This document shows, piece after piece, positions 6,954 through 27,910 of a stretch of DNA of 32,000 nt (its first letter is position 1; every line of letters starts with the position of its first letter). A model generated the notes under the pieces. That model saw only the letters and a list, made by a program, of their open reading frames with translations, searched no databases and was not told the DNA's origin. Made by a program: the position numbers and the translations under genes. Source of the DNA: an uncultured Methanosarcinales archaeon (GTDB taxonomy: Archaea > Nanobdellota > Nanobdellia > Woesearchaeales > JANQNQ01); the NCBI GenBank assembly GCA_964550525.1, contig CAZJZJ010000002.1, forward strand, positions 15,618-47,617. The letters are read 5' to 3'.

Positions 6954-7007
6954 GGACACCACCTCTGAAAGAAATATGGCAATGGTGTTTAAAAATATTG
7001 CCTTTTT

Positions 7008-7215
7008 TAGAGCCACTGGACAAACCACCCTGTCCAGTGGCTAGAGCTCTCCTGCTGCCAGTTTTTAGCTGTTTCAGCCCTTTCAGCAGAGCCACTGGAC
7101 ACTGGACACGCGTGCGCGTGAGGTATTTAAAGGAAAGGATCTATTTAATTTATTGTGATGTTCAGCTTGGAAGACTGGCAGGGAGCGCATCTCCTCCTTC
7201 CCTCTGTTTCCCTGC
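7008..7215 (+). other. G+C-rich repeat- and helix-rich intergenic island (candidate structured RNA/leader or protein-binding site cluster)
   Basis: About 58% G+C over 7011-7120 by hand count, in an AT-rich background. The 14-mer AGAGCCACTGGACA occurs at 7008-7021 and 7087-7100, with an inverted copy at 7030-7041. Arms 7045-7070 and 7162-7187 pair over 23 bp. An 8-bp alternative helix pairs 7176-7183 with 7208-7215. Two G-U pairs favour the + strand. Confidence 0.4.
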
Positions 7216-7256
7216 CTACTCTTTCTGAACAACTGAATGTTCAAAGAGGTGAAACA

Positions 7257-7376
7257 TATGGAAAAAATGGATGTAAACAAGATCAGCGATTTATTCTTTA
7301 AACAAATCCGTAACCTTAGTGTTAAGACTTACAAAGAGGACTTATTTGATTACCAATTTAGTGATTTATGGTTATA
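7257..7376 (+). CDS. Hypothetical 39-aa protein (below the ORF-track cutoff)
   Basis: ATG lies 6 nt after GAGGTG (7245-7250). Hand translation: MEKMDVNKISDLFFKQIRNLSVKTYKEDLFDYQFSDLWL. The next SD starts immediately after its stop. Confidence 0.4.
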
Positions 7377-7394
7377 AATCTGGAGGTGAGTAGG

Positions 7395-7589
7395 ATGAAA
7401 AAAGAGGACCTAAGAAAACTAAAGTTAAGGTTGGGTCTTGAAGAAGACAGATACCCTGTTTTCTCTTTAGACCAGGAATTTGAAGAAGAAAAGGACATAT
7501 ATTCTGAGCAGGGCGCAAACAGTTGTTGTGAAGACGATCAGATCAATCCTGCAGAAGAGGGGTTTATGAAAGGTTATCTTGCTGCATAG
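7395..7589 (+). CDS. Hypothetical small acidic protein (64 aa)
   Basis: An internal ATG is preceded by GGAGGTGA. The track's start at 7368 has no SD. Confidence 0.5.
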   Translation: MKKEDLRKLKLRLGLEEDRYPVFSLDQEFEEEKDIYSEQGANSCCEDDQINPAEEGFMKGYLAA

Positions 7590-7690
7590 CTCCAACCAGG
7601 AAAAACTTCCCACTGATACTTCCTTCCCCAGGAATTTAGACTGAATGGGGATTGAAATAAAAAGCGAATAGCAAAAAGGAGGTGTTGTAT

Positions 7691-7960
7691 ATGGAAGATA
7701 CAACTACAGGTGTGAATACACCTGAAAAAAGGTTTAGTACAGGCGTTATTAACGCCACAATTTGGAAGAACAAGGCCATAGACAAAGATGGCAAAAATGT
7801 AGAGTACAGAACTGTTTCTTTTGAGAGACGTTACGCCTCTAAAACAGGCGACTGGAAAACCACGAGTTCTTTAAGAGTCCAGGACTTGCCTATGGCAGCT
7901 CTAGTTCTAAGAGAAGCATTTAGGTATATAGCTTTGAAACAGAAACGAGTTGCTGGGTAA
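7691..7960 (+). CDS. Hypothetical 89-aa protein (beta-rich core plus C-terminal helix; possibly nucleic-acid binding)
   Basis: ATG lies 6 nt after AGGAGGTG (7677-7684). The pattern GVINATIWKNK..EYRTVSFERRY..GDWKTTSSLRVQDLPMAALVLREAFRYI looks like a small sheet-plus-helix fold. Function is only a guess. Confidence 0.55.
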   Translation: MEDTTTGVNTPEKRFSTGVINATIWKNKAIDKDGKNVEYRTVSFERRYASKTGDWKTTSSLRVQDLPMAALVLREAFRYIALKQKRVAG

Positions 7961-7971
7961 AAAAAGAAAAC

Positions 7972-8004
7972 GTGGCAGAGCCACGCACAGGATTGACCCT
8001 CCTG
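7972..8004 (+). repeat. Partial copy of the 5' half (D-arm start plus whole anticodon hairpin) of the downstream tRNA
   Basis: GTGGCAGAG (7972-7980) equals 8050-8058. GCACAGGATTGACCCTCCTG (7985-8004) matches 8068-8087 with one mismatch. The D-loop is replaced by CCAC, and there is no acceptor or T arm. Confidence 0.7.
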
Positions 8005-8043
8005 AAGTAATGGGAGTGAAACAACTATTTAAATTTTTTGTAT

Positions 8044-8156
8044 GCCGCGGTGGCAGAGTCTGGCAATGCGCAGGATTGACCCTCCTGTGCCCTTCGGGGC
8101 TCCTGGGTTCAAACCTAGTAACAGTACTCTCGCGGGTGAGATTCCCAGCCGCGGCG
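8044..8156 (+). tRNA. Intron-containing tRNA with long variable arm (class-II/Ser-like shape, G73) and anticodon loop UUGACCC (nominal anticodon GAC)
   Basis: Acceptor GCCGCGG/CCGCGGC. D arm GCAG-AGTCTGGCA-ATGC with G18G19. Anticodon stem CAGGA/TCCTG. Variable arm GCCC-UUCG-GGGC. T stem CTGGG (8103-8107) plus loop TTCAAAC, whose perfect partner CCCAG is only at 8144-8148. That implies a 29-nt insert (8115-8143). No encoded CCA. Confidence 0.65.
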
Positions 8157-8159
8157 ACA

Positions 8160-8164
8160 TTTTT
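8160..8164 (+). terminator. Oligo-T tract after the tRNA
   Basis: TTTTT lies 4 nt after the discriminator base. Archaeal Pol terminators are oligo-T runs. Confidence 0.4.
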
Positions 8165-8217
8165 ACCTATCTTAATAGAAAAAAAGAAGAAACACCAAGA
8201 ACCAGAAAAGTCCACAA

Positions 8218-8366
8218 TACCACCCCGTATTGTACTCTTGCTGGTGTTTGGTGCTTCAATTATATAAAGTTTACGTTCAAGAAAAAGAAGATACACTAAG
8301 TGCTCAAGAAAACAACTACCACCCATAGTTTGTTCTATTGGGTGCTTAGTGCTTCAATTATATAAA
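8218..8366 (+). repeat. Tandem duplication (about 99-nt period) of a ~50-nt module ending in a TATA-like box
   Basis: The module is TACCACCC...GTGCTTCAATTATATAAA at 8218-8268 and 8317-8366. The last 18 nt are identical (8251-8268 = 8349-8366) and the upstream part is imperfect. Confidence 0.6.
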
Positions 8367-8395
8367 CTTTTTGGATTTCCAGAAAGTTTATGCTT

Positions 8396-8445: not shown

Positions 8446-8455
8446 CTTATATAAT
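8446..8455 (+). promoter_or_regulatory. TATA-like box (CTTATATAAT) about 28 nt upstream of ATG 8479 (a leaderless mRNA is plausible)
   Basis: The spacing fits the archaeal TATA-to-TSS distance, and there is no SD before the ATG at 8479. Confidence 0.3.
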
Positions 8456-8478: not shown

Positions 8479-10017
8479 ATGAAAGAAGATTTTAGTATGT
8501 ACAAGGACAAAGTTGACTTTAAACTAGTCCCAGAGATAAAAGAAAAAGAAGAAAAGATAGTTGAACAACTTGAAAAACAATTAACAAAAGCTATTGAAAA
8601 AAGAGCTTCTGGGAAAATAGGTGTTTTATTCTCTGGCGGCATAGATTCTACATTGATTGCAATGATCTTAAAAAAACTAGGACATGATTTCACTTGTTAT
8701 ACAGCAGCTTTGGATGACTCAAACCTTAAACAGCCGGAAGATTTAATTTACGCAGAAAAGGTTGCAAAAGAGCTTGGGTTTAAGTTAAAAGTTGTGAAAA
8801 TCAAATTAGGGCAAGTAGAAGAATATCTTAAAAAAATTATTCACATAATTAAAGATCCAAATGTAGTTAAGGTTGGTGTTGCACTGCCTATTTATTTTGC
8901 TTCTGAACAAGCTAAAAAAGATGGTTGCAGAGTTGTTTTCTCTGGTCTTGGAAGTGAAGAAATCTTTGCAGGCTATCAACGGCATCGTGAAACAAAGAAT
9001 ATTAATCAAGAGTGTTTGAATGGTCTAAAATTAATGTATAAAAGAGATTTAACAAGGGACAGCGCAATCGCAGAACACCTTGGTATAGATTTAATGTGTC
9101 CTTTCCTTGACAAAGATCTTGTAGAATACTCTTTAAGGATTCCTGCAAAATATAAAATCAGAAATGGGCAGCAAAAGCACATTATTAGGCAGGTAGGTAA
9201 AAAACTTGGACTAAAAAAAGAGTTTGCTGAGAGAAAAAAACGTGCAGCACAATATGGAAGTAACTTTCATAAAGCATTGATTAAACTTACTAAGAAGAAT
9301 AGATTCAACTATATCAAAGACTACTTAGCAACATTCTTTCCTTTAGGAGCTTTAATCAGTTCTGGTAAGGATAGCATATATGCAATGTATAAAATAATGA
9401 AACAAGGCTATAAAATTAATTGTTTAATTACTTTGAAAAGCAAAAACCCAGATTCATTCATGTTTCACACGCCTACAATTGACCTAGTTAAATTACAGGC
9501 AGAATCCGTAGGCATTCCTTTAATTGAACACAAAACAAAAGGTGAGGAAGAAAAAGAACTAACTGACCTAACTGCTGCTTTGGAAAAAGCAAAAAAACAA
9601 TACAATATCCAAGGGATTACTACAGGTGCCTTATTCTCTTCCTACCAAAAAAACAGAATAGAAAAAGTATGCGAGAAACTAAACCTAAAAGTCTTTTCTC
9701 CACTCTGGCACATGGACCAGGAGAAAGAAATTAGAGAGATAATTGATGCTGGTTTTAAGTTCATCATCACAAAGATCGCTGCTGAAGGTCTTGACAAAAC
9801 CTGGCTCGGCAAAGTGGTTGGTCATAAGGATGTTGATAAGTTAGTAGAGCTCAACAAGAAGATAGGCTTGAATATTAGCGGCGAAGGCGGCGAATTCGAA
9901 ACATTAATGGTGGATGGGCCGTGTTTTAGCAAGCCGATAAAGATTGTCAATTCTGAGATAGAGATGGAGAATGAACGGACTGGAAATTATAATATCATTA
10001 AAGCTGAGTTAGAATAA
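8479..10017 (+). CDS. Two-module PP-loop ATPase: asparagine-synthase-like domain fused to a diphthine-ammonia ligase (MJ0570/Dph6)-like domain
   Basis: N-terminal half: GVLFSGGIDS PP-loop, VVFSGLGSEEIFAGYQRH, MCPFLDKDLVEYSLRIP (AsnB C-domain pattern). C-terminal ~225 aa: ALISSGKDSIYAMY, ITTGALFSSYQKNRIE, GEGGEFETLVVD-like GEGGEFETLMVD (ATP_bind_4 pattern). Confidence 0.8.
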   Translation: MKEDFSMYKDKVDFKLVPEIKEKEEKIVEQLEKQLTKAIEKRASGKIGVLFSGGIDSTLIAMILKKLGHDFTCYTAALDDSNLKQPEDLIYAEKVAKELGFKLKVVKIKLGQVEEYLKKIIHIIKDPNVVKVGVALPIYFASEQAKKDGCRVVFSGLGSEEIFAGYQRHRETKNINQECLNGLKLMYKRDLTRDSAIAEHLGIDLMCPFLDKDLVEYSLRIPAKYKIRNGQQKHIIRQVGKKLGLKKEFAERKKRAAQYGSNFHKALIKLTKKNRFNYIKDYLATFFPLGALISSGKDSIYAMYKIMKQGYKINCLITLKSKNPDSFMFHTPTIDLVKLQAESVGIPLIEHKTKGEEEKELTDLTAALEKAKKQYNIQGITTGALFSSYQKNRIEKVCEKLNLKVFSPLWHMDQEKEIREIIDAGFKFIITKIAAEGLDKTWLGKVVGHKDVDKLVELNKKIGLNISGEGGEFETLMVDGPCFSKPIKIVNSEIEMENERTGNYNIIKAELE

Positions 10018-11915: not shown

Positions 11916-13193
11916 TTACTCTTTAACTATCTTCTTAAACGGTAAATATTTATGTAAAACCTTAGGAACTAAAATCGTGCCATCTTTCTGTTGGAAATTC
12001 TCAAGTATAGCGCAGATAGCTCTTGAAGTTGCAATAACAGTACTGTTCAAAGTATGTGCAACAACCTTTTCACCGCCTTCTTTACCTATCTTAATATTCA
12101 ATTTCCTTGCTTGATAGCTTGTACAATTAGAACAGCTTACCATCTCTCTGTATTTGCCTTGTGCAGGGAACCATACCTCTAGATCATACTTCTTTGCAGC
12201 TACACTACCCATATCACCTGTACAGACATTCACTATCCTGTAAGGCAGACCTAGTTTCAGAAAGATCTCTTCAGCATTCTTGATTAGCTCTTTATGTAGT
12301 TCCCATGATTTTTTTGGATGGCAAAAGATAAACTGTTCAATCTTATTGAACTGGTGTACTCTGAATATGCCTTTAGTGTCTTTACCATGGCTACCTGCTT
12401 CTTTCCTGAAACAAGGGCTTACACCTGCGTACTTAAGCGGAGCTTTATCAATATCAATAGTTTCATCCATATGCAAAGCAGCTAAACTATGTTCAGAGGT
12501 TGCAACGAGATACAGGTCTTCTCCTTCAACCTTATATAGTACATCCTCGAAATCTGCGAGTGTAACAGCTCCTTCCATAGGTTTTCTTTTAATCATGAAT
12601 GGCGGTTCAGTAAGCTTGTATCCTTTCTTGTGCATGAAGTCTAAAGCAAACTTTTGTAATGCAATGTCCAACATTGTAAGTTGTGTATTCAGATAATAAA
12701 ACCTTGAACCAGCTACTTTAGCAGCTCTTTCCAGATCTATTAGGTTAAGTTCTTCGCATATGTCTGCATGTGCTTTAGGTGGGAAACCTAGTTTAGGTCT
12801 TTTTCCACCAGTCTTAATCTCTTGATTATCATTCTCATCTTTACCTACAGGTACAGATTCATGTAGAATATTAGGCAACCTCATCATATAGAAAACAATC
12901 TTATCCTTAAGCTGCTCTATCCTGTTTTCTGCTTGATCAATCTTCTTAGGCAGTTCTTTTAGCTCTTTAATCTTAGCTGAGATATCCTTTTTTTCTTTCT
13001 TTAGTTGAGCTATCTCTTTGTTGATAGTGTTTTTACTATGTTTTAGATTCTGCAAATCATAAGTCTGTTTTCTATATGCAGCATCTTTCTTAAGAAGATC
13101 ATCTACCCATTCAATCTTGTCTTCTTGACCTCTTTTCTTCAGGTCATTCTTGACAATCTCAGGATTCTCTCTTATAAGTCTAATATCAAGCAT
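11916..13193 (-). CDS. serS: Seryl-tRNA synthetase
   Basis: Start set at MLDIRLIRENPE (ATG 13193), preceded by TAGGAGGGG. It has an N-terminal coiled-coil arm and class-II motifs FRKEAGSHGKDTKGIFRVHQF and TLNSTVIATSR. Confidence 0.93.
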   Translation of the reverse strand: MLDIRLIRENPEIVKNDLKKRGQEDKIEWVDDLLKKDAAYRKQTYDLQNLKHSKNTINKEIAQLKKEKKDISAKIKELKELPKKIDQAENRIEQLKDKIVFYMMRLPNILHESVPVGKDENDNQEIKTGGKRPKLGFPPKAHADICEELNLIDLERAAKVAGSRFYYLNTQLTMLDIALQKFALDFMHKKGYKLTEPPFMIKRKPMEGAVTLADFEDVLYKVEGEDLYLVATSEHSLAALHMDETIDIDKAPLKYAGVSPCFRKEAGSHGKDTKGIFRVHQFNKIEQFIFCHPKKSWELHKELIKNAEEIFLKLGLPYRIVNVCTGDMGSVAAKKYDLEVWFPAQGKYREMVSCSNCTSYQARKLNIKIGKEGGEKVVAHTLNSTVIATSRAICAILENFQQKDGTILVPKVLHKYLPFKKIVKE

Positions 13194-17720: not shown

Positions 17721-19268
17721 ATGGCTATGTTTAATGATAAGATAAAGGAATACGAGGCTAAAGTCAAGGAGACTGAGCCTAGTCCTGAAGCTGTTAAAAA
17801 GCAGCACGATAAAGGCAAACTTACAGCCAGAGAAAGGATAAAACTCCTTGTAGATTCTAATTCTTTCAATGAAATAGACGCTTTAGTTAAACTAAGATCA
17901 CACAATTTTAATCTTCAGGATAAAAAAAAAGCAGGAGATGCAGTTGTAACAGGTTATGCAACTGTGAATAAAAGGCCTGTTTACTTGTATGCTCAGGATT
18001 TCACTGCAATTGGTGGTTCTTTAGGAGAGATGCATGCTGACAAAATAGTTAAAATAATGAAAGAAGCAGTTAAAACAGGCACACCTTTTGTTGCAATCAA
18101 TGATTCAGGCGGTGCTCGTATACAAGAAGGAGTTAACAGCTTGGATGGTTATGGTAAAATATTCAAAGCAAACACATTTGCTTCTGGAGTAATACCTCAG
18201 ATCTCAGTTATTTTAGGTCCATGTGCAGGCGGTGCTGTTTACTCACCTGCAATTACAGACTTTGTGTTCATGGTCAACAAGCTTAGCCATATGTTCATCA
18301 CAGGCCCCGATGTGATTAAATCTGTAACAGGTGAAGAGATTTCTTTTGAAGACCTGGGTGGAGCTTCTGTTCATAACAAAAAAAGCGGTAATGCACATTT
18401 CTTATGTAAAGATGAAAAACAATGCTTTGAAAAGATCAAACAACTATTATCTTATTTACCTCAAAACAATATGGAAAGTCCTCCTGTAAAAACAACAGGA
18501 GATAGTATAAATAGGAAGAATACTAAACTTAAAGAGATAGTACCAGCAGAGTCAAAACAATCCTATGACATTAAACAAGTCATTGATGAGATTGCAGATA
18601 AAAACACTTTCTTTGAAGTGCATGAACACTTTGCACAAAGCGCTGTAGTGGGTTTTGCACGTCTAGTTGGCAATGTTGTTGGTATAGTAGCTAACCAGCC
18701 TTTGGTTTTAGCTGGTGTACTTGATATTCATTCTTCTGACAAGATTGCACGTTTTGTACGTTTCTGTGATTCATTCAATATTCCTTTAATTACTCTTGTG
18801 GATGTACCTGGTTATTTACCTGGAGTTGAACAAGAACACGGTGGTATAATTAGACATGGTGCAAAGATGTTGTATGCGTTCGCAGAAGCAACTGTGCCTA
18901 AGATTGCTTTAGTTATAAGAAAAGCTTACGGCGGAGCATACATAGCAATGTGTTCTCGTGCTTTAGCTTATGATAAGCTTATTGCATGGCCAACAGCTGA
19001 GATAGCTGTTATGGGTCCTGAACAAGCAGCCAAGATTATTTATCGTAGAGATATAAAAGCTTCAACAGACCCTGCAAAAACAGAAGCAGAGAAAGTATCT
19101 GAGTTCAAAGACAAATTCCTAAATCCATATGTCGCTGCTGAAGAAGGCAGAGTTGACATGGTTATCAATCCAGAAGACAGCAGGCTAACCTTAATCAAAT
19201 GTTTACAAATGCTTCTTACAAAACGCGAGAAAAGAATGCCTAAGAAGCATGGGAATATTCCTTTGTAA
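17721..19268 (+). CDS. pccB: Acyl-CoA carboxylase carboxyltransferase subunit (propionyl-CoA carboxylase beta / methylmalonyl-CoA carboxyltransferase family)
   Basis: Length is 515 aa. Motifs: DSGGARIQEGV, GPCAGGAVYSPA, RKAYGGAYIAM. Confidence 0.92.
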   Translation: MAMFNDKIKEYEAKVKETEPSPEAVKKQHDKGKLTARERIKLLVDSNSFNEIDALVKLRSHNFNLQDKKKAGDAVVTGYATVNKRPVYLYAQDFTAIGGSLGEMHADKIVKIMKEAVKTGTPFVAINDSGGARIQEGVNSLDGYGKIFKANTFASGVIPQISVILGPCAGGAVYSPAITDFVFMVNKLSHMFITGPDVIKSVTGEEISFEDLGGASVHNKKSGNAHFLCKDEKQCFEKIKQLLSYLPQNNMESPPVKTTGDSINRKNTKLKEIVPAESKQSYDIKQVIDEIADKNTFFEVHEHFAQSAVVGFARLVGNVVGIVANQPLVLAGVLDIHSSDKIARFVRFCDSFNIPLITLVDVPGYLPGVEQEHGGIIRHGAKMLYAFAEATVPKIALVIRKAYGGAYIAMCSRALAYDKLIAWPTAEIAVMGPEQAAKIIYRRDIKASTDPAKTEAEKVSEFKDKFLNPYVAAEEGRVDMVINPEDSRLTLIKCLQMLLTKREKRMPKKHGNIPL

Positions 19269-19300
19269 TTAGAATTGTTGGGGGGGCGGAATGATCCAAA

Positions 19301-20203
19301 ATGACATGGGCAGGTATACAAGTTGGGAATGATGGGATGATTGGTAAATATTATCCTTGGCGAATAATGAAAAAAATTCTTTCTGGAGAACTCTCTCCTG
19401 ATTTTGAATATCGTGCTTGGAGATCATTGATTGAAAGATTTGAAAGAGAGGAAAGATTAAAAGAAGGAGGACTGGAGCAAGCAACAAAACAACTTTCTGA
19501 GTCTTTTAGGGATTTATACAGGGTTTTTGGTCGTGAAAACACAGCTAAGGTTCTAGGAATGCTTCAAATTGAATTTCTATATCCTGAAGAACAAAAATCA
19601 ATAATGGAGCAATATGAAGAATTAAAATTAAATGTAGTTAAAAGAAAAAAGGAATTTGACGAGTTTATCAATGTTCTTGAGAATGAAACCAACTGGCTTA
19701 CTGCTCCTGCAAGTACAAGGTATCGTCTAATTGAAGAAGGTGGGTTATTAACACACTCTGTAAGGGTTTGCAATACTTACTTAAAATTACTTCAACTATT
19801 GGCTCCTAATATCTCTGTAGAAAGTGGTACTGTTGATGGTTTATTTCATGATGCAGGTAAAGCAGGCATGCCAGGAGTACCTTATTATATGAAACAGGAA
19901 GATGGGAGTTATATTAAAAACCCAGAGCTTGAAAAAATGCAGCCTGGAATGACTGTAGCTCAAAGAAGTTTACTTTTAATCTCAAATTATATCCCCTTAA
20001 GTCATCAAGAAAGGCAAGCAGTTGAATATCATGATGGTTTGTATAGGCCAGAAAACTGGGCTGTTGCAAATGACGAATACCCTCAAACTATATTGCTTAT
20101 AGCTGCAGATGGCTGGACAGCAGGTGTAACTGACATTAATAAACCTGTTGTAGATGGAAAACCTTTTAATAGGAAAGATGCTCACTCTTTAAAGCGTAAT
20201 TAA
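19301..20203 (+). CDS. HD-superfamily metal-dependent phosphohydrolase
   Basis: GGLLTHSVRV...GLFHDAGKA...AVEYHDG...LLIAADGW gives the H..HD..H..D pattern. The exact start is uncertain. Confidence 0.65.
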   Translation: MTWAGIQVGNDGMIGKYYPWRIMKKILSGELSPDFEYRAWRSLIERFEREERLKEGGLEQATKQLSESFRDLYRVFGRENTAKVLGMLQIEFLYPEEQKSIMEQYEELKLNVVKRKKEFDEFINVLENETNWLTAPASTRYRLIEEGGLLTHSVRVCNTYLKLLQLLAPNISVESGTVDGLFHDAGKAGMPGVPYYMKQEDGSYIKNPELEKMQPGMTVAQRSLLLISNYIPLSHQERQAVEYHDGLYRPENWAVANDEYPQTILLIAADGWTAGVTDINKPVVDGKPFNRKDAHSLKRN

Positions 20204-20216
20204 AGGTGAAATCAAT

Positions 20217-20603
20217 ATGCCACGCAAAATCAAAGTAACTGTGAACAATAAGGATTATGATGTTGGAGTTACTGAGTTAGGAGGCGGAAAGCTAAAACTA
20301 GAGTTAGAGGGTGAATCCTATGAAGTGGATACAAAGGAAGAAGAAACAACCTCTGAGCAAAAAACTGATTCTGTTGAGATTGAATCCAGTGAAAACGTAA
20401 TCAAAGCTCCAATGCCTGGCACAGTCCTTGGAATAAATGTTAAGCCAGGTGATAAAGTCAAGAAAGGCGACCCTGTAGTTACTTTGATAGCTATGAAAAT
20501 GGAAAACAAGATTACTTCTCCGAAAAAAGGCAAAGTCAAGGAAATCAAGGTTAAAGAAGGCCAGAATGTTGAATCAGGGGATGTACTTGTAGTTCTGGAA
20601 TAA
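20217..20603 (+). CDS. accB: Biotin carboxyl carrier protein
   Basis: C-terminal biotinyl domain with the IAMKMENKI attachment motif. AAGGTGA SD. Confidence 0.9.
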   Translation: MPRKIKVTVNNKDYDVGVTELGGGKLKLELEGESYEVDTKEEETTSEQKTDSVEIESSENVIKAPMPGTVLGINVKPGDKVKKGDPVVTLIAMKMENKITSPKKGKVKEIKVKEGQNVESGDVLVVLE

Positions 20604-20737
20604 TTCTATTCTTCCCAATAAATGAACAATTCACCACTCTTAAATGAACTCCATTCCCAAACTTCTCTAAAATAGTGACAAAGCTTTTTATAGCCATGAA
20701 TCAATAATTCACTAACCTTTAAAACGAGGTGACGCGC

Positions 20738-21076
20738 ATGCAAGACATGGTAGGGAAATGGGCCTTCATCATCGGTGTGGTGTTGGCTATAATTGCAGGA
20801 TTCGTCGCTATACCCTTTACAGCGTTTGTACTGGCTGTGTTAGGTTTAGTTGTAGGATTCCTGAACATTACAACTAAGGAAACAAACAATTTCTTGATGG
20901 CAGCTATTGCTTTGCTGGTATTAGGAGCAGCTTCTTTAGGTGCTATTGGAGAAGTGACAGTTCTAAAGATGGTAGCAGAATGGGTTGAATCAATCCTAAC
21001 AAACATAATAGCATTTGTAGCTCCAGCTGCATTGGTAGTTTCTTTAGAAGCAATCTATAAGATAGGTCAAAAATAG
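20738..21076 (+). CDS. Small integral membrane protein
   Basis: ATG lies 6 nt after GAGGTGA. Four hydrophobic segments. Confidence 0.6.
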   Translation: MQDMVGKWAFIIGVVLAIIAGFVAIPFTAFVLAVLGLVVGFLNITTKETNNFLMAAIALLVLGAASLGAIGEVTVLKMVAEWVESILTNIIAFVAPAALVVSLEAIYKIGQK

Positions 21077-21098
21077 GCCTAATTTTTTTCTTTTTTTC

Positions 21099-21323
21099 TT
21101 AACCACTTCTTCCTTTGTTAGCAAATAGAATTCCTATCAGTACAGTCAAGCCCCAAGCTTTCCATACTGTAAGCTTACCAATAACCCCCTTGGTTACGCT
21201 TGGCAGTATCCAATTCCATAACAGGAATACAGGATAAGCAAGTATAAGGCCAACTACAATAGTAAGTCCAAGTGCAACAGCAATCATAGTTGCTTTGTTA
21301 AATATATCTTTCAATAACCCCAT
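21099..21323 (-). CDS. Small membrane protein (74 aa)
   Basis: Start moved to MGLLKD (ATG 21323), preceded by AGGTGAT. The track's longer N-terminus has no SD. Confidence 0.5.
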   Translation of the reverse strand: MGLLKDIFNKATMIAVALGLTIVVGLILAYPVFLLWNWILPSVTKGVIGKLTVWKAWGLTVLIGILFANKGRSG

Positions 21324-21415
21324 AAATATCACCTGTAAATTAGGGTAGTTAGGGGGTTTAAAAATTTTATGGAAAAAACTAAAACAATAAATACAACCTC
21401 TCCATTCCCATAACC

Positions 21416-21811
21416 ATGGAACTTGGTAATGATGACTGGTGTTTTGCATGCGGTAAGTATAATCCGCACGGATTACAACTAGATATAAAGATTGAAGGCA
21501 AGAAATCCTATTTTGAATTCACACCAAAGAAACAGCATCAAGGATATCAAGACTTTCTTCACGGCGGTATAATGTCTACTCTGCTAGATGAAGCAGTTGG
21601 CAACCTTGTTTGGCGGCTTGGATTAGGAGCAGTAACAGCTAAGATAGAAGTAAACCTGAGAAAACCTGTGAAAATAGGAGAAAAACTATTTGTAACCGGC
21701 GAAGTAATCAAAGAACAAGGACGTAAAGTATTCGCAAAATCAGAAGCACGAACAGAAGACGGAGTTGTAGTTGCAGATTGTGAAGCGCTTTTGATTAAGC
21801 TTAAGAAATAG
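21416..21811 (+). CDS. PaaI/4HBT-type hotdog-fold acyl-CoA thioesterase
   Basis: CFACGKYNPHGL, HGGIMSTLLDEA and a length of ~130 aa are typical of PaaI-family thioesterases. Confidence 0.75.
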   Translation: MELGNDDWCFACGKYNPHGLQLDIKIEGKKSYFEFTPKKQHQGYQDFLHGGIMSTLLDEAVGNLVWRLGLGAVTAKIEVNLRKPVKIGEKLFVTGEVIKEQGRKVFAKSEARTEDGVVVADCEALLIKLKK

Positions 21812-22487
21812 TCCCCTCAACAACAACTTCCCTAGAACCATCCTCTTTCTCAACAATTAAATTGCAATCAGAATCAACATCAATAGCTTTGCCGACAATC
21901 TCTCCATTACCGAAAACATCTACTCTTACATCCCTGCCAATTGTGTCAGAAAGCTCTTTCCATTCAGCGATTATTTCTTTTTTGTTTTTTTTATAGTAAT
22001 GTTCAAAGTTTTTTAGAATGTTTTTTATTATCTCTTCTTTATCAAACTCTTTACCTTTAATCTCTTTAACACTAATCCCTTCCTCAACATCATTATTAAC
22101 ATTCAAACCAATTCCAACAACCATCTTACTGTCCTCAGCAACAACATTCTCAGTCAACATCCCGCACAACTTCTTTCCTTCATAAACCAAATCATTTGGC
22201 CACTTGATGCCAGCTTCAACAGAGCAAACCTCAAAAACAGCTTTACGCACAGCAAGCGCTGTAATAAAAGTCATGAATTTCATATTCTCAATCTCTGTCT
22301 TAATAACCAATGACATGTAAACTCCGCCTTCTTCAGAACTCCAGCTACGGTCAAACCTGCCACGACCTTTAGTCTGTTTATCTGCAACTATAGCTGTACC
22401 TACTGGTATTTCTTTTGCTTTATCCATAGTAGAATCCAGTTCCTTGAAATGCATTACTTTAAACATTTTAGAATCTTCCTTGGTCAT
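21801..22487 (-). CDS. birA: Biotin-[acetyl-CoA-carboxylase] ligase
   Basis: KGRGRFDRSW (GRGRxGRxW motif). An alternative start at ATG 22466 lies 1 nt after the accC stop. Confidence 0.88.
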   Translation of the reverse strand: MTKEDSKMFKVMHFKELDSTMDKAKEIPVGTAIVADKQTKGRGRFDRSWSSEEGGVYMSLVIKTEIENMKFMTFITALAVRKAVFEVCSVEAGIKWPNDLVYEGKKLCGMLTENVVAEDSKMVVGIGLNVNNDVEEGISVKEIKGKEFDKEEIIKNILKNFEHYYKKNKKEIIAEWKELSDTIGRDVRVDVFGNGEIVGKAIDVDSDCNLIVEKEDGSREVVVEGTIS

Positions 22488-24453
22488 AAAAATTACCCAG
22501 CATCTGCTGTCTTGATGCCATTACCCATGCACTTTGTTTTTGTGTATAATCAACCTCGCACATTGGATATTGTTCAGTGCCAAGGTACTGTGAAACAGCA
22601 GCAGCAATCACAGCAATCCTTTTACCATTAGTAAGCTCTTCTTTATTTTTAACTTCAAGTATTTTTTTAACTTTATCTAAAATCTTATTCCTTTCAATAA
22701 ATGTAGTGTTTATATTACCGTGCCTGAAATCTTCTGTCTCAAAAGCAACTGAGTGGAATGGGATAGTTGTATCCACACCTTCAATAATATACTCTTCTAA
22801 AGCACGTCTCATTCGTGCAATTGCTTCGTTCCTGTTCTTACCAAAACACATTAATTTTGAAATCATTGAATCGTAATGAGGTGAAATTTTGTAACCAGTA
22901 TGTGAACAACTGCATACTCTAATTCCAGGACCTCCTGGCGGAAGATAATTTGTGATAGTCCCTGGGCAAGGCATGAAATCATTTTCAACACTCTCAGCAT
23001 TAATCCTGCATTCAATTGCCCAACCTCTAAAATGAATATCCTCTTGTTTTAATGTAAGTTTAGCACCTGCAGCAACCTTGATCTGCTCTTTGACAAGATC
23101 AACTCCAGTAATCATCTCTGTAATCCCATGTTCAACCTGTATCCTTGTATTCATCTCCATAAAAAAGAAATTGCCTTTATCATCAAGCAAAAACTCAACA
23201 GTACCAGCACCCTCATAACCAGCAGCTTTGCCTGCTTTAACAGCAGCTTCACCCATAGTTTCCCTTAACTCAGGTGTTAGAGCAACTGAAGGAGCTTCTT
23301 CAATTAGCTTCTGATGTCTTCTTTGAATAGAACATTCTCTTTCACCAAGATGGATTACATTACCATACTGATCTGCCAGCACTTGAAACTCAATATGTCT
23401 AGGTTCTTCAAAATATTTCTCAATATATACATCTTTATTTCCAAAAGAACTTTTTGCTTCAGCCATAGCACTTTTGATAGCAGGCATTAGTTCTTCTTCT
23501 TTATTCACTATCCTCATACCTTTACCACCGCCGCCTGCAGTCGCTTTTACAATAACAGGGTAAACTAGTTCTTTAGCAATCCTTACTGCTTCTTCTTTAT
23601 CCTGTACTGCACCTTCAGTACCAGGTATCACAGGCACACCTACCTCTTTCATTGTATGCCTTGCAATAATCTTATCTCCCATCATCTGGATAGTTCTTTC
23701 TTTCGGCCCGATAAATTTGATGTTATTCTTTTTACACATCCTTGCAAAACCAGCGTTTTCTGCTAAAAACCCATAACCTGGATGCACAGCATCAACATTT
23801 GCTTTCTTAGCAATCTTGATGATTTTAGCTGGGTCAAGATAGCTTCTTGTAGAGCCAATATTATAAGATTCATCTGCGAACTTAACTGCAAGGGAATTCT
23901 TGTCCTCATCTGAATAAACAACTGCAACTTTTACACCTAACTCTCTGGCAGCCCTCATGATCCTTACAGCAATCTCCCCTCTGTTTGCTATCAATATCTT
24001 CCCAAACATTAGCTTAGGCTCAATAGAAGTGAAGTCCACACTCTCTTCTGTCAAACTTCCTACCCCCTTGGTTATTATGTCAAGGAAAGATTCTGGAGGC
24101 TTATCTTTAATCATTTTTCTCCAGTTATCTGTATTAAGTGTAGGCAGTTTTTTTAATAGATTATCTGTAAATATCTCACCGAGACTGTTAAGATCAGTCT
24201 TACCCTTGCCATCTCTCTTACTTGTTTCAATAGTCACAACATGAGACTTAACAACAGACATAACCTGATCATATACCTGTGGAAACCTCCTCTTAGTCTT
24301 CTTAGCCAGTCCAGCCAGCTTCTTAAATCCTCGGTTAAAAGGAGTAAGAAATCTATTCATAGCCTTAGATTCATCCAACCTATCCAATGGTTTCTTAATA
24401 AGTTTATCATACATTGGATTAATCTTTTTTATCTTTGTCATAAAACCACGCAT
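22468..24453 (-). CDS. accC: Biotin carboxylase with a ~148-aa N-terminal and a ~65-aa C-terminal extension
   Basis: The core runs from MFGKILIANRGEIAVRI (aa 149) and includes GGGGKGMRIV and MNTRIQVEH. The extension frames are open with no stop. Confidence 0.9.
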   Translation of the reverse strand: MRGFMTKIKKINPMYDKLIKKPLDRLDESKAMNRFLTPFNRGFKKLAGLAKKTKRRFPQVYDQVMSVVKSHVVTIETSKRDGKGKTDLNSLGEIFTDNLLKKLPTLNTDNWRKMIKDKPPESFLDIITKGVGSLTEESVDFTSIEPKLMFGKILIANRGEIAVRIMRAARELGVKVAVVYSDEDKNSLAVKFADESYNIGSTRSYLDPAKIIKIAKKANVDAVHPGYGFLAENAGFARMCKKNNIKFIGPKERTIQMMGDKIIARHTMKEVGVPVIPGTEGAVQDKEEAVRIAKELVYPVIVKATAGGGGKGMRIVNKEEELMPAIKSAMAEAKSSFGNKDVYIEKYFEEPRHIEFQVLADQYGNVIHLGERECSIQRRHQKLIEEAPSVALTPELRETMGEAAVKAGKAAGYEGAGTVEFLLDDKGNFFFMEMNTRIQVEHGITEMITGVDLVKEQIKVAAGAKLTLKQEDIHFRGWAIECRINAESVENDFMPCPGTITNYLPPGGPGIRVCSCSHTGYKISPHYDSMISKLMCFGKNRNEAIARMRRALEEYIIEGVDTTIPFHSVAFETEDFRHGNINTTFIERNKILDKVKKILEVKNKEELTNGKRIAVIAAAVSQYLGTEQYPMCEVDYTQKQSAWVMASRQQMLGNFYDQGRF

Positions 24454-24599
24454 AAACAGGTTTTTTTTGGGTTATTTAAAGTTTACTTTGCAAGGAAAGG
24501 CTCTTCTTACATCATGTTTTGTTATCCCTTTGAGGTAGTTAAAAACCAAAAGATTTATAAAGGGGTGATAATTCCTTCTCTTAACTGAGGTTATTATTA

Positions 24600-26123: not shown

Positions 26124-26245
26124 AACCCCAAAAAACCGCTTTCTCAGCCCGTATTAAGTTCTTATACTCTAAAACATAAAACTTTTTAAATAGTAAAAGT
26201 TTTCGCCGTATACTCAGATTTTACCACAATATGGAGGGGGTATAT

Positions 26246-26749
26246 ATGAGCGAGATGATAGATGGACTTAAGGATGAGAATGGTCAGCTTGATCATAATT
26301 CAATCAAGCAGATAATACCATATGATTATCCGTTTTTAATGATAGATAGGGTAATTTTGTTGCAAAAAGACAAGATTATGGCAATAAAGAACGTTACAAT
26401 CAATGAACACTTCTTTAAAGGCCATTTTGCAGGTTTCCCTATTATGCCAGGCGCAATGATGATTGAAGGTATGGGCCAAGCAGCAACTTTGCTTGCTAGG
26501 TATAACCTAGAAAACCATCATGAGAAAGAGTGTCTAGCTTTTAAGATCAAAGACGCTAAATTCATTAAACCTGTATTCCCAGGCGACCAGATGAGGTTTG
26601 AGGTTGCTTTACAGGGTATGAACGAGAAAGGAGCAGCAGTCGCAGGCAAAGTCATTGTCAATGAAGCAGTAGTTGCAGAAGCGATGATGATGATTGCTGT
26701 TGTTGACAGGCAAAGCTTTAGAGCGAAATACAGTGGGATGTTCAAATAA
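26246..26749 (+). CDS. fabZ: FabZ-type 3-hydroxyacyl thioester dehydratase (hotdog fold)
   Basis: Start at the ATG after GGAGGGGG. Motifs: PFLMIDRV, HFFKGHFAGFPIMPGAMMIEGMGQ. Confidence 0.85.
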   Translation: MSEMIDGLKDENGQLDHNSIKQIIPYDYPFLMIDRVILLQKDKIMAIKNVTINEHFFKGHFAGFPIMPGAMMIEGMGQAATLLARYNLENHHEKECLAFKIKDAKFIKPVFPGDQMRFEVALQGMNEKGAAVAGKVIVNEAVVAEAMMMIAVVDRQSFRAKYSGMFK

Positions 26750-26787
26750 AGCTATTTTTTTAAATCTTTCAAACTAGGTGATACTAT

Positions 26788-27909: not shown

Positions 27910-27910
27910 C

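What the first reader, a model, noticed from the sequence alone, without database searches (positions are those of the whole stretch)
8044..8156. tRNA with a T-loop intron and Ser-like (class II, G73) architecture but a GAC (Val) anticodon loop
All arms can be drawn. The acceptor is GCCGCGG/CCGCGGC. The D arm has G18G19. A perfect 5-bp anticodon stem (8071-8075 with 8083-8087) encloses the loop TTGACCC. The variable arm is a 4-bp stem capped by a C(UUCG)G tetraloop (8089-8100). The T stem CTGGG plus loop TTCAAAC has its only perfect partner, CCCAG, 29 nt further on. That implies a non-canonical intron (8115-8143) near position 59-61. A long variable arm plus G73 is the Ser-type design, and SerRS generally ignores the anticodon. 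Yet positions 34-36 read GAC, and position 37 is a pyrimidine (C), which is very unusual. An in-window control argues against clean Val-to-Ser reassignment: the conserved IMPDH motif GVGVPQ is written with GTT codons (2008-2010 and 2014-2016), so GUY still means Val. The options are (a) a real tRNA-Val(GAC) with an aberrant extra arm or a second mini-intron, (b) an ambiguous or mischarging decoder, or (c) a tRNA-like RNA or pseudogene. I could not draw a convincing bulge-helix-bulge motif by eye.
Basis: partly seen in the sequence, partly recalled or inferred. Interest (0 to 1): 0.66.

Follow-up and report, generated by a model that had tools for sequence, protein, structure and literature searches.

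The report
Intron-split serine-type tRNA with valine anticodon
A small archaeon (DPANN group) carries an intact tRNA gene, hidden from standard tools by a 29-base intron in its T-loop, that is built like a serine tRNA but has an anticodon for valine; it is a rare mismatch whose use could not be settled from this one locus.

Summary
Window 8044-8156 (+) is a tRNA gene that ARAGORN and Rfam miss because a 29-nt intron interrupts the T-loop. Removing about 29 nt there is the only single deletion in the whole 32-kb window that produces a tRNA call.

It fits only register 59/60, a documented archaeal intron position. This moves the intron to 8114-8142 and restores the canonical T-loop UUCAAAU.

The 84-nt product has no stem mismatch and keeps the universal core bases. 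Its body carries the full archaeal tRNA-Ser set: long variable arm, G73, G1-C72, C2-G71, G4-C69, C11-G24 and G30-C40. Its anticodon loop is UUGACCC, that is GAC with C37.

GUY codons still mean Val (12 of 12 conserved columns are V or I, none S). GUU is the commonest Val codon.

Expression is doubtful. No promoter box lies at the usual distance, and a T6 run sits 4 nt upstream. A decayed half-copy 80 nt upstream keeps an identical 17-nt anticodon arm.

No relatives were found.

Best reading: a tRNA-Ser-derived orphan V-arm tRNA that is weakly made and a poor decoder. A silent pseudogene and a non-decoding role remain live alternatives.

The parts
8044..8156 (+). Whole tRNA gene, G1 to discriminator G73 (113 nt with the intron, 84 nt spliced; CCA is not encoded)
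   Evidence: Sequence. ARAGORN calls it after in-silico splicing. It is the only tRNA-forming locus in the whole-window deletion scan. Rfam tRNA scores 23.5 bits unspliced.
8044..8113 (+). 5' exon, tRNA positions 1-59: acceptor 5' strand, D arm, anticodon arm, variable arm, T-stem 5' strand and T-loop bases 54-59
   Evidence: Cloverleaf drawn by ARAGORN. BHB register.
8114..8142 (+). 29-nt non-canonical intron at position 59/60 (CCUAGUAACAGUACUCUCGCGGGUGAGAU)
   Evidence: Only register 59/60 gives a 4/4 central helix. 59/60 is a listed archaeal intron position (PMC4090602). ARAGORN tolerates this deletion up to 114% of its default threshold.
8143..8156 (+). 3' exon, positions 60-73: U60, T-stem 3' strand CCCAG, acceptor 3' strand CCGCGGC, G73
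   Evidence: Sequence. Splicing restores GGGUUCAAAUCCC.
8108..8143 (+). Bulge-helix-bulge splice motif. Central helix 8108-8111 (UUCA) pairs with 8137-8140 (UGAG). The 5' bulge is 8112-8114 (AAC) and the 3' bulge is 8141-8143 (AUU). A weak inner helix joins 8115-8116 with 8135-8136. The outer helix is the T stem 8103-8107/8144-8148.
   Evidence: Direct reading. Shuffle test: P about 0.018 for the 4-bp helix, 0.0024 with the inner helix. A fold constrained to this structure reaches -44.0 kcal/mol, against an unconstrained MFE of -52.5. The geometry follows PMC4090602.
8071..8087 (+). Anticodon arm CAGGA-UUGACCC-UCCUG. The anticodon GAC is 8078-8080, followed by C37 (8081) and C38 (8082). It includes the G30-C40 pair.
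   Evidence: Sequence. Every successful ARAGORN model reads gac.
8088..8102 (+). 15-nt variable region with a 4-bp hairpin capped by UUCG (8089-8100): the class II long variable arm
   Evidence: Sequence. ARAGORN drawing. By blastn this part plus the T arm hits class II tRNAs of phages (Ser, Leu, bacterial Tyr). The hairpin has no bulges, so it has no BHB.
8160..8164 (+). T5 run 3 nt after the discriminator; a likely archaeal transcription stop
   Evidence: Sequence. That oligo-T acts as an archaeal terminator is established knowledge, not tested here.
7971..8022 (+). Decayed upstream half-copy ('U') of tRNA positions about 7-60. GTGGCAGAG is identical (9/9) and the anticodon arm is identical (17/17, 7988-8004). 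It lacks 5 nt of the D loop and 10 nt of the variable arm. Its D-arm remnant has been remodelled into a perfect 6-bp hairpin (7971-7985).
   Evidence: the repeat finder families D3 and D6. The 17-mer occurs exactly twice in the window against 0.07 expected. Fold.
8023..8039 (.). BRE/TATA-like box AACTATTTAAAT (8023-8034) followed by a T6 run (8034-8039), ending 4 nt before G1. The box is too close to serve as a promoter for the full tRNA: the predicted start is about 8056-8060. The T6 run would stop read-through from upstream.
   Evidence: Comparison with 25 gene upstream regions of the window, where boxes of the type AAAC-TTTWWAWA lie about 25-45 nt before starts. This is inference; no transcript data are available.

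Best explanation
This is a genuine archaeal tRNA gene. The host is a DPANN, Woesearchaeota-like organism.

Proposed pathway:
1. A 29-nt intron interrupts the T-loop at position 59/60.
2. In the precursor, T-loop bases 54-57 pair with the 3' end of the intron. This makes a 4-bp helix flanked by two 3-nt bulges.
3. The archaeal splicing endonuclease cuts after A59 (8113|8114) and before U60 (8142|8143).
4. An RNA ligase joins the exons and CCA is added.

The 84-nt product is a class II tRNA. Its body carries the archaeal tRNA-Ser marks, but its anticodon loop is UUGACCC (GAC, pyrimidine 37).

I think it is most likely a tRNA-Ser-derived orphan paralogue. It would be made at a low level and charged by SerRS, which ignores the anticodon; ValRS might also charge it through A35/C36. 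The C37/C38 loop would make it a poor decoder. It therefore does not change the meaning of GUY, which stays Val.

What is shown and what is inferred:
- Shown: the gene structure, the BHB register, the Ser-type body, and that GUY = Val.
- Inferred: expression, splicing, charging and decoding strength.
For: Structure and splice motif:
- The cloverleaf appears only after a deletion of about 29 nt in the T-loop, and nowhere else in 32 kb.
- The BHB central helix is 4/4 only in register 59/60. That position is documented, and splicing there restores the canonical UUCAAAU T-loop.
- DPANN lineages are reported to have disrupted tRNA genes that standard predictors miss (PMC5829648).

Integrity:
- All stems are perfect, apart from the class-II-typical G13:A22.
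- U8, A14, G15-C48, G18, G19, A21, U33, G53-C61, U54-A58, U55 and C56 are all present.

Ser-type body:
- It has a long variable arm, G73, G1-C72, C2-G71, G4-C69, C11-G24 and G30-C40. This equals the set listed for ancestral archaeal tRNA-Ser (PMC13433404).
- G73 and G30-C40 are identity elements for bacterial-type and archaeal SerRS (PMC9976931).

Constraint over time:
- The neighbouring half-copy has diverged by about 45% outside two perfectly conserved blocks, while the tRNA has no structural defect. This suggests the tRNA was constrained after the duplication (inference).

Other points:
- A T5 run follows the 3' end directly.
- GUY codons sit in V/I columns 12 of 12 times, never in S columns.
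Against: - No BRE/TATA box lies at the usual distance. The only box predicts a start inside the D loop, and a T6 run lies 4 nt upstream.
- Pyrimidine 37 is almost unknown in decoding tRNAs (established knowledge).
- GAC would read GUU, which is the commonest Val codon here: 244 of 6625 codons. Tolerated mismatched tRNAs such as nev-tRNAs instead target rare codons.
- No homologue was found in any search, so there is no covariation or conservation evidence.
- Four assemblies are identical in this region and give no variation.
- The BHB fold is 8.5 kcal/mol above the MFE.
- The anticodon arm is identical in a copy that has no tRNA body. This hints that the arm matters for something other than decoding.
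Confidence: 0.42

Rival explanations
1. Silent relic: a tRNA-Ser paralogue that is no longer expressed or used. It sits in a duplication-prone intergenic region and has been dead too briefly for its stems to decay.
For: - No correctly spaced promoter box, and a T6 run immediately upstream.
- C37 and an anticodon that contradicts the body.
- A decayed tandem half-copy lies next to it, and 98-nt tandem repeats lie just downstream. Both show local duplication and decay.
- No homologues were found.
Against: - There is not one stem mismatch or lost invariant base in 84 nt, and the BHB is intact.
- The odd loop is shared with the much-decayed half-copy, so it predates that duplication. The tRNA body has stayed perfect since then.
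- Streamlined DPANN genomes rarely keep dead DNA (general knowledge).
Confidence: 0.25
2. The real tRNA-Val(GAC) of this organism. It would be charged by ValRS through A35/C36, and would have acquired an extra variable-arm hairpin and G73 as lineage-specific quirks.
For: - A35 and C36 are the strongest Val determinants, and the anticodon matters in archaea too (PMC9976931).
- C38 is a ValRS determinant in viral tRNA-like structures.
- GUU is the top Val codon, so a GAC tRNA must exist somewhere.
- The upstream half-copy lacks exactly 10 nt in the variable region. Deleting CCCUUCGGGG would leave a class I-like 5-nt loop, UGCUC.
- ARAGORN also accepts the version without the arm.
Against: - A73 is described as universally conserved in canonical tRNA-Val, and G3-C70 as ancestral. 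Here they are G73 and C3-G70.
- The body matches the tRNA-Ser set at every listed position.
- C37, and no proper promoter for what would have to be an abundant tRNA.
- The review table consulted lists no class II tRNA with a non-canonical anticodon for archaea, and my paper search for an archaeal class II tRNA-Val found none.
Confidence: 0.12
3. A tRNA-shaped RNA or DNA element whose key module is the hairpin CAGGA-UUGACCC-UCCUG, present twice. The hairpin could be a protein- or RNA-binding site. Alternatively it could be an att-type core left by site-specific recombination at the anticodon arm, or the RNA could be a Ser-charged donor used outside translation.
For: - The 17-nt arm is identical in the tRNA and in a copy that has no tRNA body, while the flanks are about 45% diverged.
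- The copy's other arm was remodelled into a perfect hairpin.
- The loop is unsuited to decoding because of C37.
- Many bacterial allo-tRNAs are thought not to be used for translation and associate with mobile elements or toxin-antitoxin loci (PMC5389517).
- The T-arm/acceptor part resembles tRNA-derived att sites of Sulfolobus viruses and plasmids, but only generically.
Against: - No integrase or mobile-element gene is in the window.
- The two copies are only 66 nt apart and there is no third copy.
- No binding partner has been identified. The model of the adjacent 89-aa protein has no significant fold match.
- The full Ser-type body and the BHB are unexplained if only the hairpin matters.
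Confidence: 0.13
4. Chance resemblance: not a gene at all.
For: - Rfam tRNA is below its gathering score on the raw sequence.
- Default ARAGORN finds nothing.
Against:
- The deletion scan gave no false positive in 32 kb on both strands.
- The region is 60% GC in a 36% GC genome.
Confidence: 0.02

Closest known systems
Archaeal tRNA genes with non-canonical BHB introns (Thermoproteales, Nanoarchaeota, ARMAN and other DPANN), found by SPLITS or tRNAscan-SE in archaeal mode
   Same: - A short intron (29 nt; the reported range is 11-129 nt) sits outside 37/38, at a listed position (59/60).
- It is flanked by a 3-4-3 bulge-helix-bulge built on the adjoining stem.
- The DPANN host fits the reported excess of disrupted and unpredicted tRNA genes in that group.
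   Different: Nothing essential differs in the intron. The inner helix is weak (2 bp), so the motif tends towards the relaxed hBH form. The endonuclease type of this genome is unknown.
Archaeal tRNA-Ser (class II)
   Same: Long variable arm, G73, G1-C72, C2-G71, G4-C69, C11-G24, G30-C40, and a 3-bp D stem with G13:A22.
   Different: The anticodon is GAC rather than NGA or GCU. Positions 37 and 38 are C C rather than purine/A. Five of the seven loop bases differ from a usual Ser loop (my own knowledge of typical loops).
nev-tRNAs / nov-tRNAs (V-arm-containing tRNAs with non-Leu/Ser anticodons in nematodes and other eukaryotes; PMC3333845)
   Same: A class II body combined with an anticodon of a class I amino acid. 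Charging is expected to follow the body rather than the anticodon. Expression is expected to be low.
   Different: - Those are eukaryotic, Leu-derived, conserved across species and shown to be expressed and charged.
- They mostly match rare codons. This one is archaeal and Ser-type, has no known relative, and matches the commonest Val codon.
- The 2014 review table lists no archaeal case.
Bacterial allo-tRNAs (PMC5389517)
   Same: Ser-identity tRNAs with long variable arms and diverse non-Ser anticodons (a Val anticodon was seen once). Many are probably not used in translation.
   Different: Allo-tRNAs have 8/4 or 9/3 acceptor/T-stem geometry and are bacterial. This one is a standard 7/5 tRNA, is archaeal, and contains an intron.
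Candida tRNA-Ser(CAG), the ambiguous CUG decoder (my own knowledge; mentioned in PMC13433404)
   Same: A Ser-type body with an anticodon for another amino acid, and an atypical anticodon loop that may temper decoding.
   Different: In Candida the codon is reassigned genome-wide. Here GUY columns remain V/I.

Membership tests
Archaeal intron-containing tRNA gene (BHB type, non-canonical position) | A canonical cloverleaf is restored after removal of one contiguous insert | tested here: met
   ARAGORN calls the spliced sequence. Only deletions of about 29 nt within 8110-8145 work. No other locus in the window does so.
Archaeal intron-containing tRNA gene (BHB type, non-canonical position) | Two 3-nt bulges separated by a 4-bp helix, with the splice sites in the bulges | tested here: met
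   UUCA (8108-8111) pairs with UGAG (8137-8140). The bulges are AAC and AUU. The helix is 4/4 only in register 59/60. P is about 0.018. Geometry as in PMC4090602.
Archaeal intron-containing tRNA gene (BHB type, non-canonical position) | The insertion point is one seen before in archaea | tested here: met
   59/60 is in the published list.
Archaeal intron-containing tRNA gene (BHB type, non-canonical position) | A splicing endonuclease able to cut relaxed or non-canonical sites is encoded; a spliced RNA is observed | not testable with these tools
   No EndA gene is in the window. The rest of the genome and transcript data are not available.
tRNA-Ser (archaeal) | Long variable arm and discriminator G73 | tested here: met
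   8088-8102 and G8156. Their role as determinants.
tRNA-Ser (archaeal) | G1-C72, C2-G71, G4-C69, C11-G24, G30-C40 | tested here: met
   All five pairs are read directly from the sequence and checked against the list in PMC13433404.
tRNA-Ser (archaeal) | Serine anticodon (NGA or GCU) with purine 37 | tested here: not met
   The loop is UUGACCC: GAC with C37.
tRNA-Ser (archaeal) | Charged by SerRS | not testable with these tools
   A SerRS with the N-terminal tRNA-binding arm is encoded at 11916-13193(-).
tRNA-Val | A35 and C36 | tested here: met
   8079-8080. Their role as determinants.
tRNA-Val | Discriminator A73 and G3-C70 | tested here: not met
   G73 and C3-G70. A73 is described as universally conserved in canonical tRNA-Val.
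tRNA-Val | Class I: short 4-5-nt variable loop | tested here: not met
   The variable region is 15 nt with a 4-bp hairpin. The hairpin has no bulges, so it is not a BHB intron.
V-arm tRNAs with non-Leu/Ser anticodons (nev-/nov-tRNA, allo-tRNA) | A class II body with an anticodon of another amino acid | tested here: met
V-arm tRNAs with non-Leu/Ser anticodons (nev-/nov-tRNA, allo-tRNA) | Conserved in related genomes | tested here: inconclusive
   Pattern scans of the genome, metagenome and viral collections gave only chance hits or none. The spurious-ORF search found only the window's own ORF. The nearest relatives are only 60-66% identical in protein and are not syntenic.
V-arm tRNAs with non-Leu/Ser anticodons (nev-/nov-tRNA, allo-tRNA) | 8/4 or 9/3 acceptor/T-stem geometry (allo-tRNA only) | tested here: not met
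   The geometry is 7/5. ARAGORN's eighth pair, U8043.G8156, is only a possible extension.
V-arm tRNAs with non-Leu/Ser anticodons (nev-/nov-tRNA, allo-tRNA) | The anticodon matches a rare codon (a tendency of nev-tRNAs) | tested here: not met
   GUU occurs 244 times and GUC 37 times in 6625 codons. GUU is the commonest Val codon.
tRNA pseudogene | Broken stems or lost invariant bases | tested here: not met
   There is no mismatch in the acceptor, anticodon, variable-arm or T stems, and all core bases are present.
tRNA pseudogene | No functional promoter, not expressed | tested here: inconclusive
   No box lies at -45..-25. The only box is at -21..-10, and a T6 run is upstream. No transcript data are available.
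tRNA-Sec | 9/4 (or 8/5) fold, long D stem, UCA anticodon | tested here: not met
   7/5 fold, 3-bp D stem, GAC anticodon. There is no Rfam tRNA-Sec hit.

The most novel reading that the evidence does not exclude
The tRNA is made, spliced and serylated, and it inserts Ser (or a Ser/Val mixture) at GUU/GUC at a low or conditional level. For example, it might be made only when transcription reads through the T6 run from the operator-controlled small-ORF operon upstream. That would be the first natural missense (mistranslating) tRNA, and the first V-arm tRNA with a non-Ser/Leu anticodon, described in Archaea.
Probability: 0.1. Interest if true: 0.85.

Novelty: new variant of a known kind. Interest (0 to 1): 0.5.

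Why it matters
The intron finding shows concretely why DPANN genomes seem to lack tRNAs. A perfectly good gene is invisible to ARAGORN and to Rfam until a T-loop BHB intron at 59/60 is removed.

The body/anticodon mismatch matters more, if the RNA is active. Class II tRNAs carrying anticodons of other amino acids are known from nematodes and other eukaryotes, and as bacterial allo-tRNAs. In the literature I could search, none is reported from Archaea.

A Ser-charged tRNA reading the commonest Val codon would be a direct test case for tolerated or regulated mistranslation in a minimal-genome archaeon. If it is instead inactive or non-decoding, the twin conserved anticodon hairpins point to a tRNA-derived element with another role.

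Either outcome is cheaply testable with tRNA-seq and two aminoacylation assays.

Tried and rejected
Searches for relatives:
1. The 17-mer anticodon arm in viral contigs gave one coding-region chance hit.
2. Anticodon arm plus T-loop pattern in 185,579 species genomes gave 9 bacterial chance hits, none a tRNA.
3. D-arm plus anticodon pattern in JGI metagenomes gave 5 chance hits.
4. Three further viral scans found nothing.
5. I translated the four open frames across the tRNA and searched the 5.8-billion-protein set for spurious ORFs laid over related tRNAs. Only the window's own ORF turned up.

Synteny:
- Contigs carrying the same dph6 gene or 89-aa gene are 99.9-100% identical in this region and give no variation.
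- The next relatives (60-68% protein identity) have no tRNA at the corresponding places.

Alternative folds:
- ARAGORN at 80% threshold offered a Pro(ggg) model with an 18-nt intron inside the anticodon and a degenerate T arm. I rejected it because the T-loop is poor and only 3 bp pair.
- Pairing CAGGA with the second UCCUG (8101-8105) destroys the canonical T arm.
- Register 56/57 would give the T-loop UUCGAUU, but it has no BHB (2/4 pairs).
- The minus strand lacks U33.

Other ideas rejected:
- Variable arm as a mini-intron: the hairpin has no bulges.
- tRNA-Sec: wrong fold and wrong anticodon.
- Codon reassignment: GUY columns are V/I.
- A remnant of a dph6 N-terminal domain disrupted by insertion: none was found.
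- blastn against phage and plasmid records gave only partial class II or att-site-like hits.
Full report
**What is there.** Window 8044-8156 (+) reads:

GCCGCGG UG GCAG AGUCUGGCA AUGC G CAGGA UUGACCC UCCUG U GCCC UUCG GGGC UC CUGGG UUCAAA[C CUAGUAACAGUACUCUCGCGGGUGAGAU]U CCCAG CCGCGGC G.

ARAGORN on the raw window finds no tRNA, and Rfam at gathering scores finds nothing in 32 kb. With relaxed thresholds the Rfam tRNA model aligns 8044-8126 at 23.5 bits (cut-off 29). The D arm, anticodon arm and T-stem 5' side align well, but the 3' acceptor side is mismatched because the model cannot bridge the insert. Once 29 nt are removed in silico, ARAGORN calls a class II tRNA with anticodon gac.

**Is it more than chance?** I deleted every possible stretch of 0-60 nt within the locus. 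Only deletions of about 27-31 nt lying between 8110 and 8145 gave a tRNA, always with anticodon GAC. The best of these survive up to 114-116% of ARAGORN's default thresholds. I then applied the same procedure (deletions of 12-45 nt) to 425 overlapping 150-nt segments covering the whole window on both strands. It gave calls at this locus only. The locus is about 60% G+C in a genome of about 36%. It is a real tRNA-type gene.

**The intron and its splice motif.** In archaeal precursors the endonuclease recognises two 3-nt bulges separated by a 4-bp helix. At the canonical site, the four loop bases next to the stem form that helix with the 3' end of the intron (PMC4090602). Transposed to the T-loop, this geometry predicts that bases 54-57 pair with the intron. 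Here they do:
- U54.G8140, U55-A8139, C56-G8138 and A57-U8137 form the central helix.
- The flanking bulges are A58 A59 C (8112-8114) and A U U60 (8141-8143).
- The T stem is the outer helix.
- A weak inner helix (C8115-G8136, U8116.G8135) lies beyond.

Of the nine possible registers, only 59/60 gives 4/4 pairs. Shuffling the intron gives such a helix in 1.8% of trials, and in 0.24% together with the inner helix. Position 59/60 is on the published list of archaeal non-canonical intron positions.

Cutting after the second base of each bulge makes the intron 8114-8142. It yields the T arm CUGGG-UUCAAAU-CCCAG, the commonest T-loop form (my own knowledge). Thermodynamically the BHB fold is not the minimum: -44.0 kcal/mol when enforced, against -52.5 for a fold that pairs the D region with the intron 3' end. 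So the support comes from geometry rather than energy.

The variable arm is a bulge-free hairpin and cannot be a BHB intron.

**Whose body is it?** The spliced 84-nt RNA has perfect acceptor (7 bp), anticodon (5 bp), variable-arm (4 bp) and T (5 bp) stems. Its D stem has 3 bp plus the G13:A22 mismatch typical of class II tRNAs. It also has U8, A14, G15-C48, G18, G19, A21, U33, G53-C61, U54-A58, U55 and C56.
- The ancestral archaeal tRNA-Ser is described as having a large variable arm, G1-C72, C2-G71, G4-C69, C11-G24, G30-C40 and G73 (PMC13433404). All seven are present.
- G73 and G30-C40 are reported as identity elements for bacterial-type and archaeal SerRS. G73 is an anti-determinant against archaeal LeuRS (PMC9976931).
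- The ancestral tRNA-Val traits are G3-C70, A35, C36 and A73, with A73 called universally conserved. Only the two anticodon bases are met.
- By blastn, the variable-arm plus T-arm segment resembles class II tRNAs of phages: Ser at E 0.02, plus Leu and bacterial Tyr.

A caveat applies. Several of the Ser pairs (G1-C72, C11-G24, G30-C40) are common in many tRNAs. The discriminating features are the variable arm and G73.

**The anticodon loop and the code.** The loop is U32 U33 G34 A35 C36 C37 C38. A pyrimidine at 37 is almost never seen in decoding tRNAs (established knowledge).

I tested whether GUY has changed meaning. I aligned two window proteins with 119 homologues (dph6-like) and about 140 homologues (carboxyltransferase), and looked at columns at least 60% conserved. 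GUU/GUC codons fell in V (9) or I (3) columns and never in S columns. UCN/AGY codons fell mostly in S columns.

GUU is the most used Val codon: 244 of 6625 codons, against 37 for GUC. Efficient Ser insertion by this tRNA would therefore hit about 4% of all codons. A genome-wide screen of bacterial and archaeal codes validated sense-codon reassignments only in bacteria (PMC8629427).

**Context.** The window is archaeal: it encodes TFIIB, Cdc6/Orc1, a diphthine-ammonia ligase fusion and SerRS. The dph6-like protein's homologues are named Woesearchaeota or Nanoarchaeota, and the best non-self match is 66% identical.

The tRNA lies in a 1.45-kb stretch between a membrane-protein gene and dph6. That stretch also holds a small-ORF operon (46, 73 and 89 aa).

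Promoter boxes of this genome have the form AAAC-TTTWWAWA and lie about 25-45 nt before gene starts. For the tRNA, the only such box is AACTATTTAAAT at 8023-8034, which is 10/12 identical to the AdSS gene's box. It sits at -21 to -10, so it predicts initiation near 8056-8060, inside the D loop. A T6 run (8034-8039) ends 4 nt before G1. A T5 run follows the 3' end (8160-8164). Expression of the full-length precursor is therefore uncertain. This is inference from sequence only.

**The upstream half-copy.** 7971-8022 is a decayed copy of tRNA positions about 7-60, which is almost exactly the 5' exon.
- GTGGCAGAG is identical (9/9).
- The anticodon arm is identical (17/17). It occurs twice in the window against 0.07 expected.
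- The remainder is about 45% different, with a 5-nt gap in the D loop and a 10-nt gap in the variable arm.
- The D-arm remnant forms a new perfect 6-bp hairpin.

Two inferences follow.
1. The odd loop predates the duplication, and the tRNA body has stayed flawless while the copy decayed. This argues for constraint on the tRNA, unless the copy was born scrambled.
2. The arm is conserved even without a tRNA body. This hints that the hairpin itself matters, or that recombination keeps the two copies identical.

I could not decide between these.

**Relatives.** None were found. Pattern scans of the species-genome, metagenome and viral collections returned only chance matches or nothing. A search for spurious ORFs overlying similar tRNAs returned only the window's own ORF. 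Other contigs with the same genes are 99.9-100% identical, with no change in the tRNA. More distant relatives are not syntenic and carry no tRNA at those places. There is thus no covariation evidence. The scans required exact matches to parts of this sequence, so their failure is weak negative evidence.

**Interpretation.**

Firm conclusions:
- This is a BHB-intron tRNA gene at 59/60 in a DPANN archaeon, missed by standard tools. That agrees with the report that DPANN tRNA sets are incompletely predicted because of disrupted genes (PMC5829648).
- Its body is Ser-type and its anticodon is GAC with C37.
- GUY remains Val.

Most likely (about 0.4): a tRNA-Ser-derived orphan paralogue that is spliced, charged by SerRS irrespective of the anticodon, weakly expressed, and a poor decoder.

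Rivals:
- A silent relic (0.25), favoured by the promoter problem and the local duplication and decay.
- A hairpin-centred, non-decoding role (0.13), favoured by the twin arms.
- The organism's real tRNA-Val(GAC) with an extra arm (0.12), favoured by the need for a GUU reader and by the 10-nt difference from the half-copy, but contradicted by G73, C3-G70 and the Ser-type body.
- Chance (0.02).

**Comparison with what is known.**
- The intron belongs to a known kind.
- The body/anticodon mismatch works like nev-/nov-tRNAs (class II, Leu-charged, anticodons for Gly or Ile; PMC3333845).
- It also works like bacterial allo-tRNAs (Ser identity, many non-Ser anticodons, often not translational; PMC5389517).
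- It is a member of neither. It has the standard 7/5 geometry, is archaeal, is Ser-derived, has no known relatives, and targets a common codon.
- A 2014 review table lists V-arm tRNAs with non-canonical anticodons only for nematodes, with none for archaea. My paper searches found no archaeal case.

I therefore rate it a new variant of a known kind. Interest is moderate. The structure is striking and cheaply testable, but activity is unproven and the evidence rests on one unvarying sequence.

Noticed in passing
window 7971-8022: Decayed half-copy of the tRNA (positions about 7-60) directly after the stop codon of the 89-aa gene. It consists of two perfect hairpins, and the second is identical to the tRNA's anticodon arm. 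Why only that arm and GTGGCAGAG stayed identical is unexplained.
   Followed up: partly
window 7009-7130; L033 1-55: The motif AGAGCCACTGGACA occurs three times, once as a perfect 12-bp hairpin (7011-7042). The block CACTGGACACTGGACA..CGCGTGAG.TAT.TAAA is conserved upstream of a similar small-ORF operon in an unrelated metagenome contig. It shares TCCAGTGG with the Pyrococcus mini-ORB TTCCAGTGGAACT, and a cdc6/orc1 gene lies 3.4 kb away. It could be an operator or an origin-recognition-box-like element. 7000-7235 folds with z = -3.1.
   Followed up: partly
window 8181-8370: Two tandem units of about 98 nt (76-89% identical), each ending in GTGCTTCAATTATATAAA, which is TATA-box-like. A third TATA box at 8447-8454 fits a leaderless dph6 start. 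The first two might drive small unannotated RNAs.
   Followed up: no
window 7237-7960: Operon of three small ORFs (46, 73 and 89 aa) with no Pfam match. Homologues of the 89-aa protein usually sit between RPA and RadA genes in other DPANN contigs. The AlphaFold model (pLDDT 82.7) has four strands plus a long C-terminal helix and no significant PDB match (Pur-alpha only at E 0.19). It may bind single-stranded nucleic acid.
   Followed up: partly
window 8479-10017: The diphthine-ammonia ligase / Asn-synthase-like fusion is 512 aa. Most homologues are about 690 aa and have an N-terminal glutamine amidotransferase domain. No remnant of that domain lies upstream, and a few other lineages also have the short form.
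   Followed up: partly
window 17721-30091: A cluster of acetyl-CoA carboxylase parts (carboxyltransferase, biotin carrier, biotin carboxylase, biotin ligase) lies with a FabA-like dehydratase, a thiolase and a DUF362-ketoreductase fusion. This is a fatty-acid-type pathway in a DPANN-like archaeon.
   Followed up: no
window 7907-8326 (-): A 139-aa ORF antisense to the tRNA was called as a gene in a public metagenome annotation (L002). It is almost certainly spurious, because it is open only thanks to the GC-rich tRNA.
   Followed up: yes
L004 9865-10177: An archaeal RNase P RNA (Rfam, 101.5 bits) is present in a related DPANN contig. Relatives therefore process tRNA 5' leaders in the usual way.
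   Followed up: no
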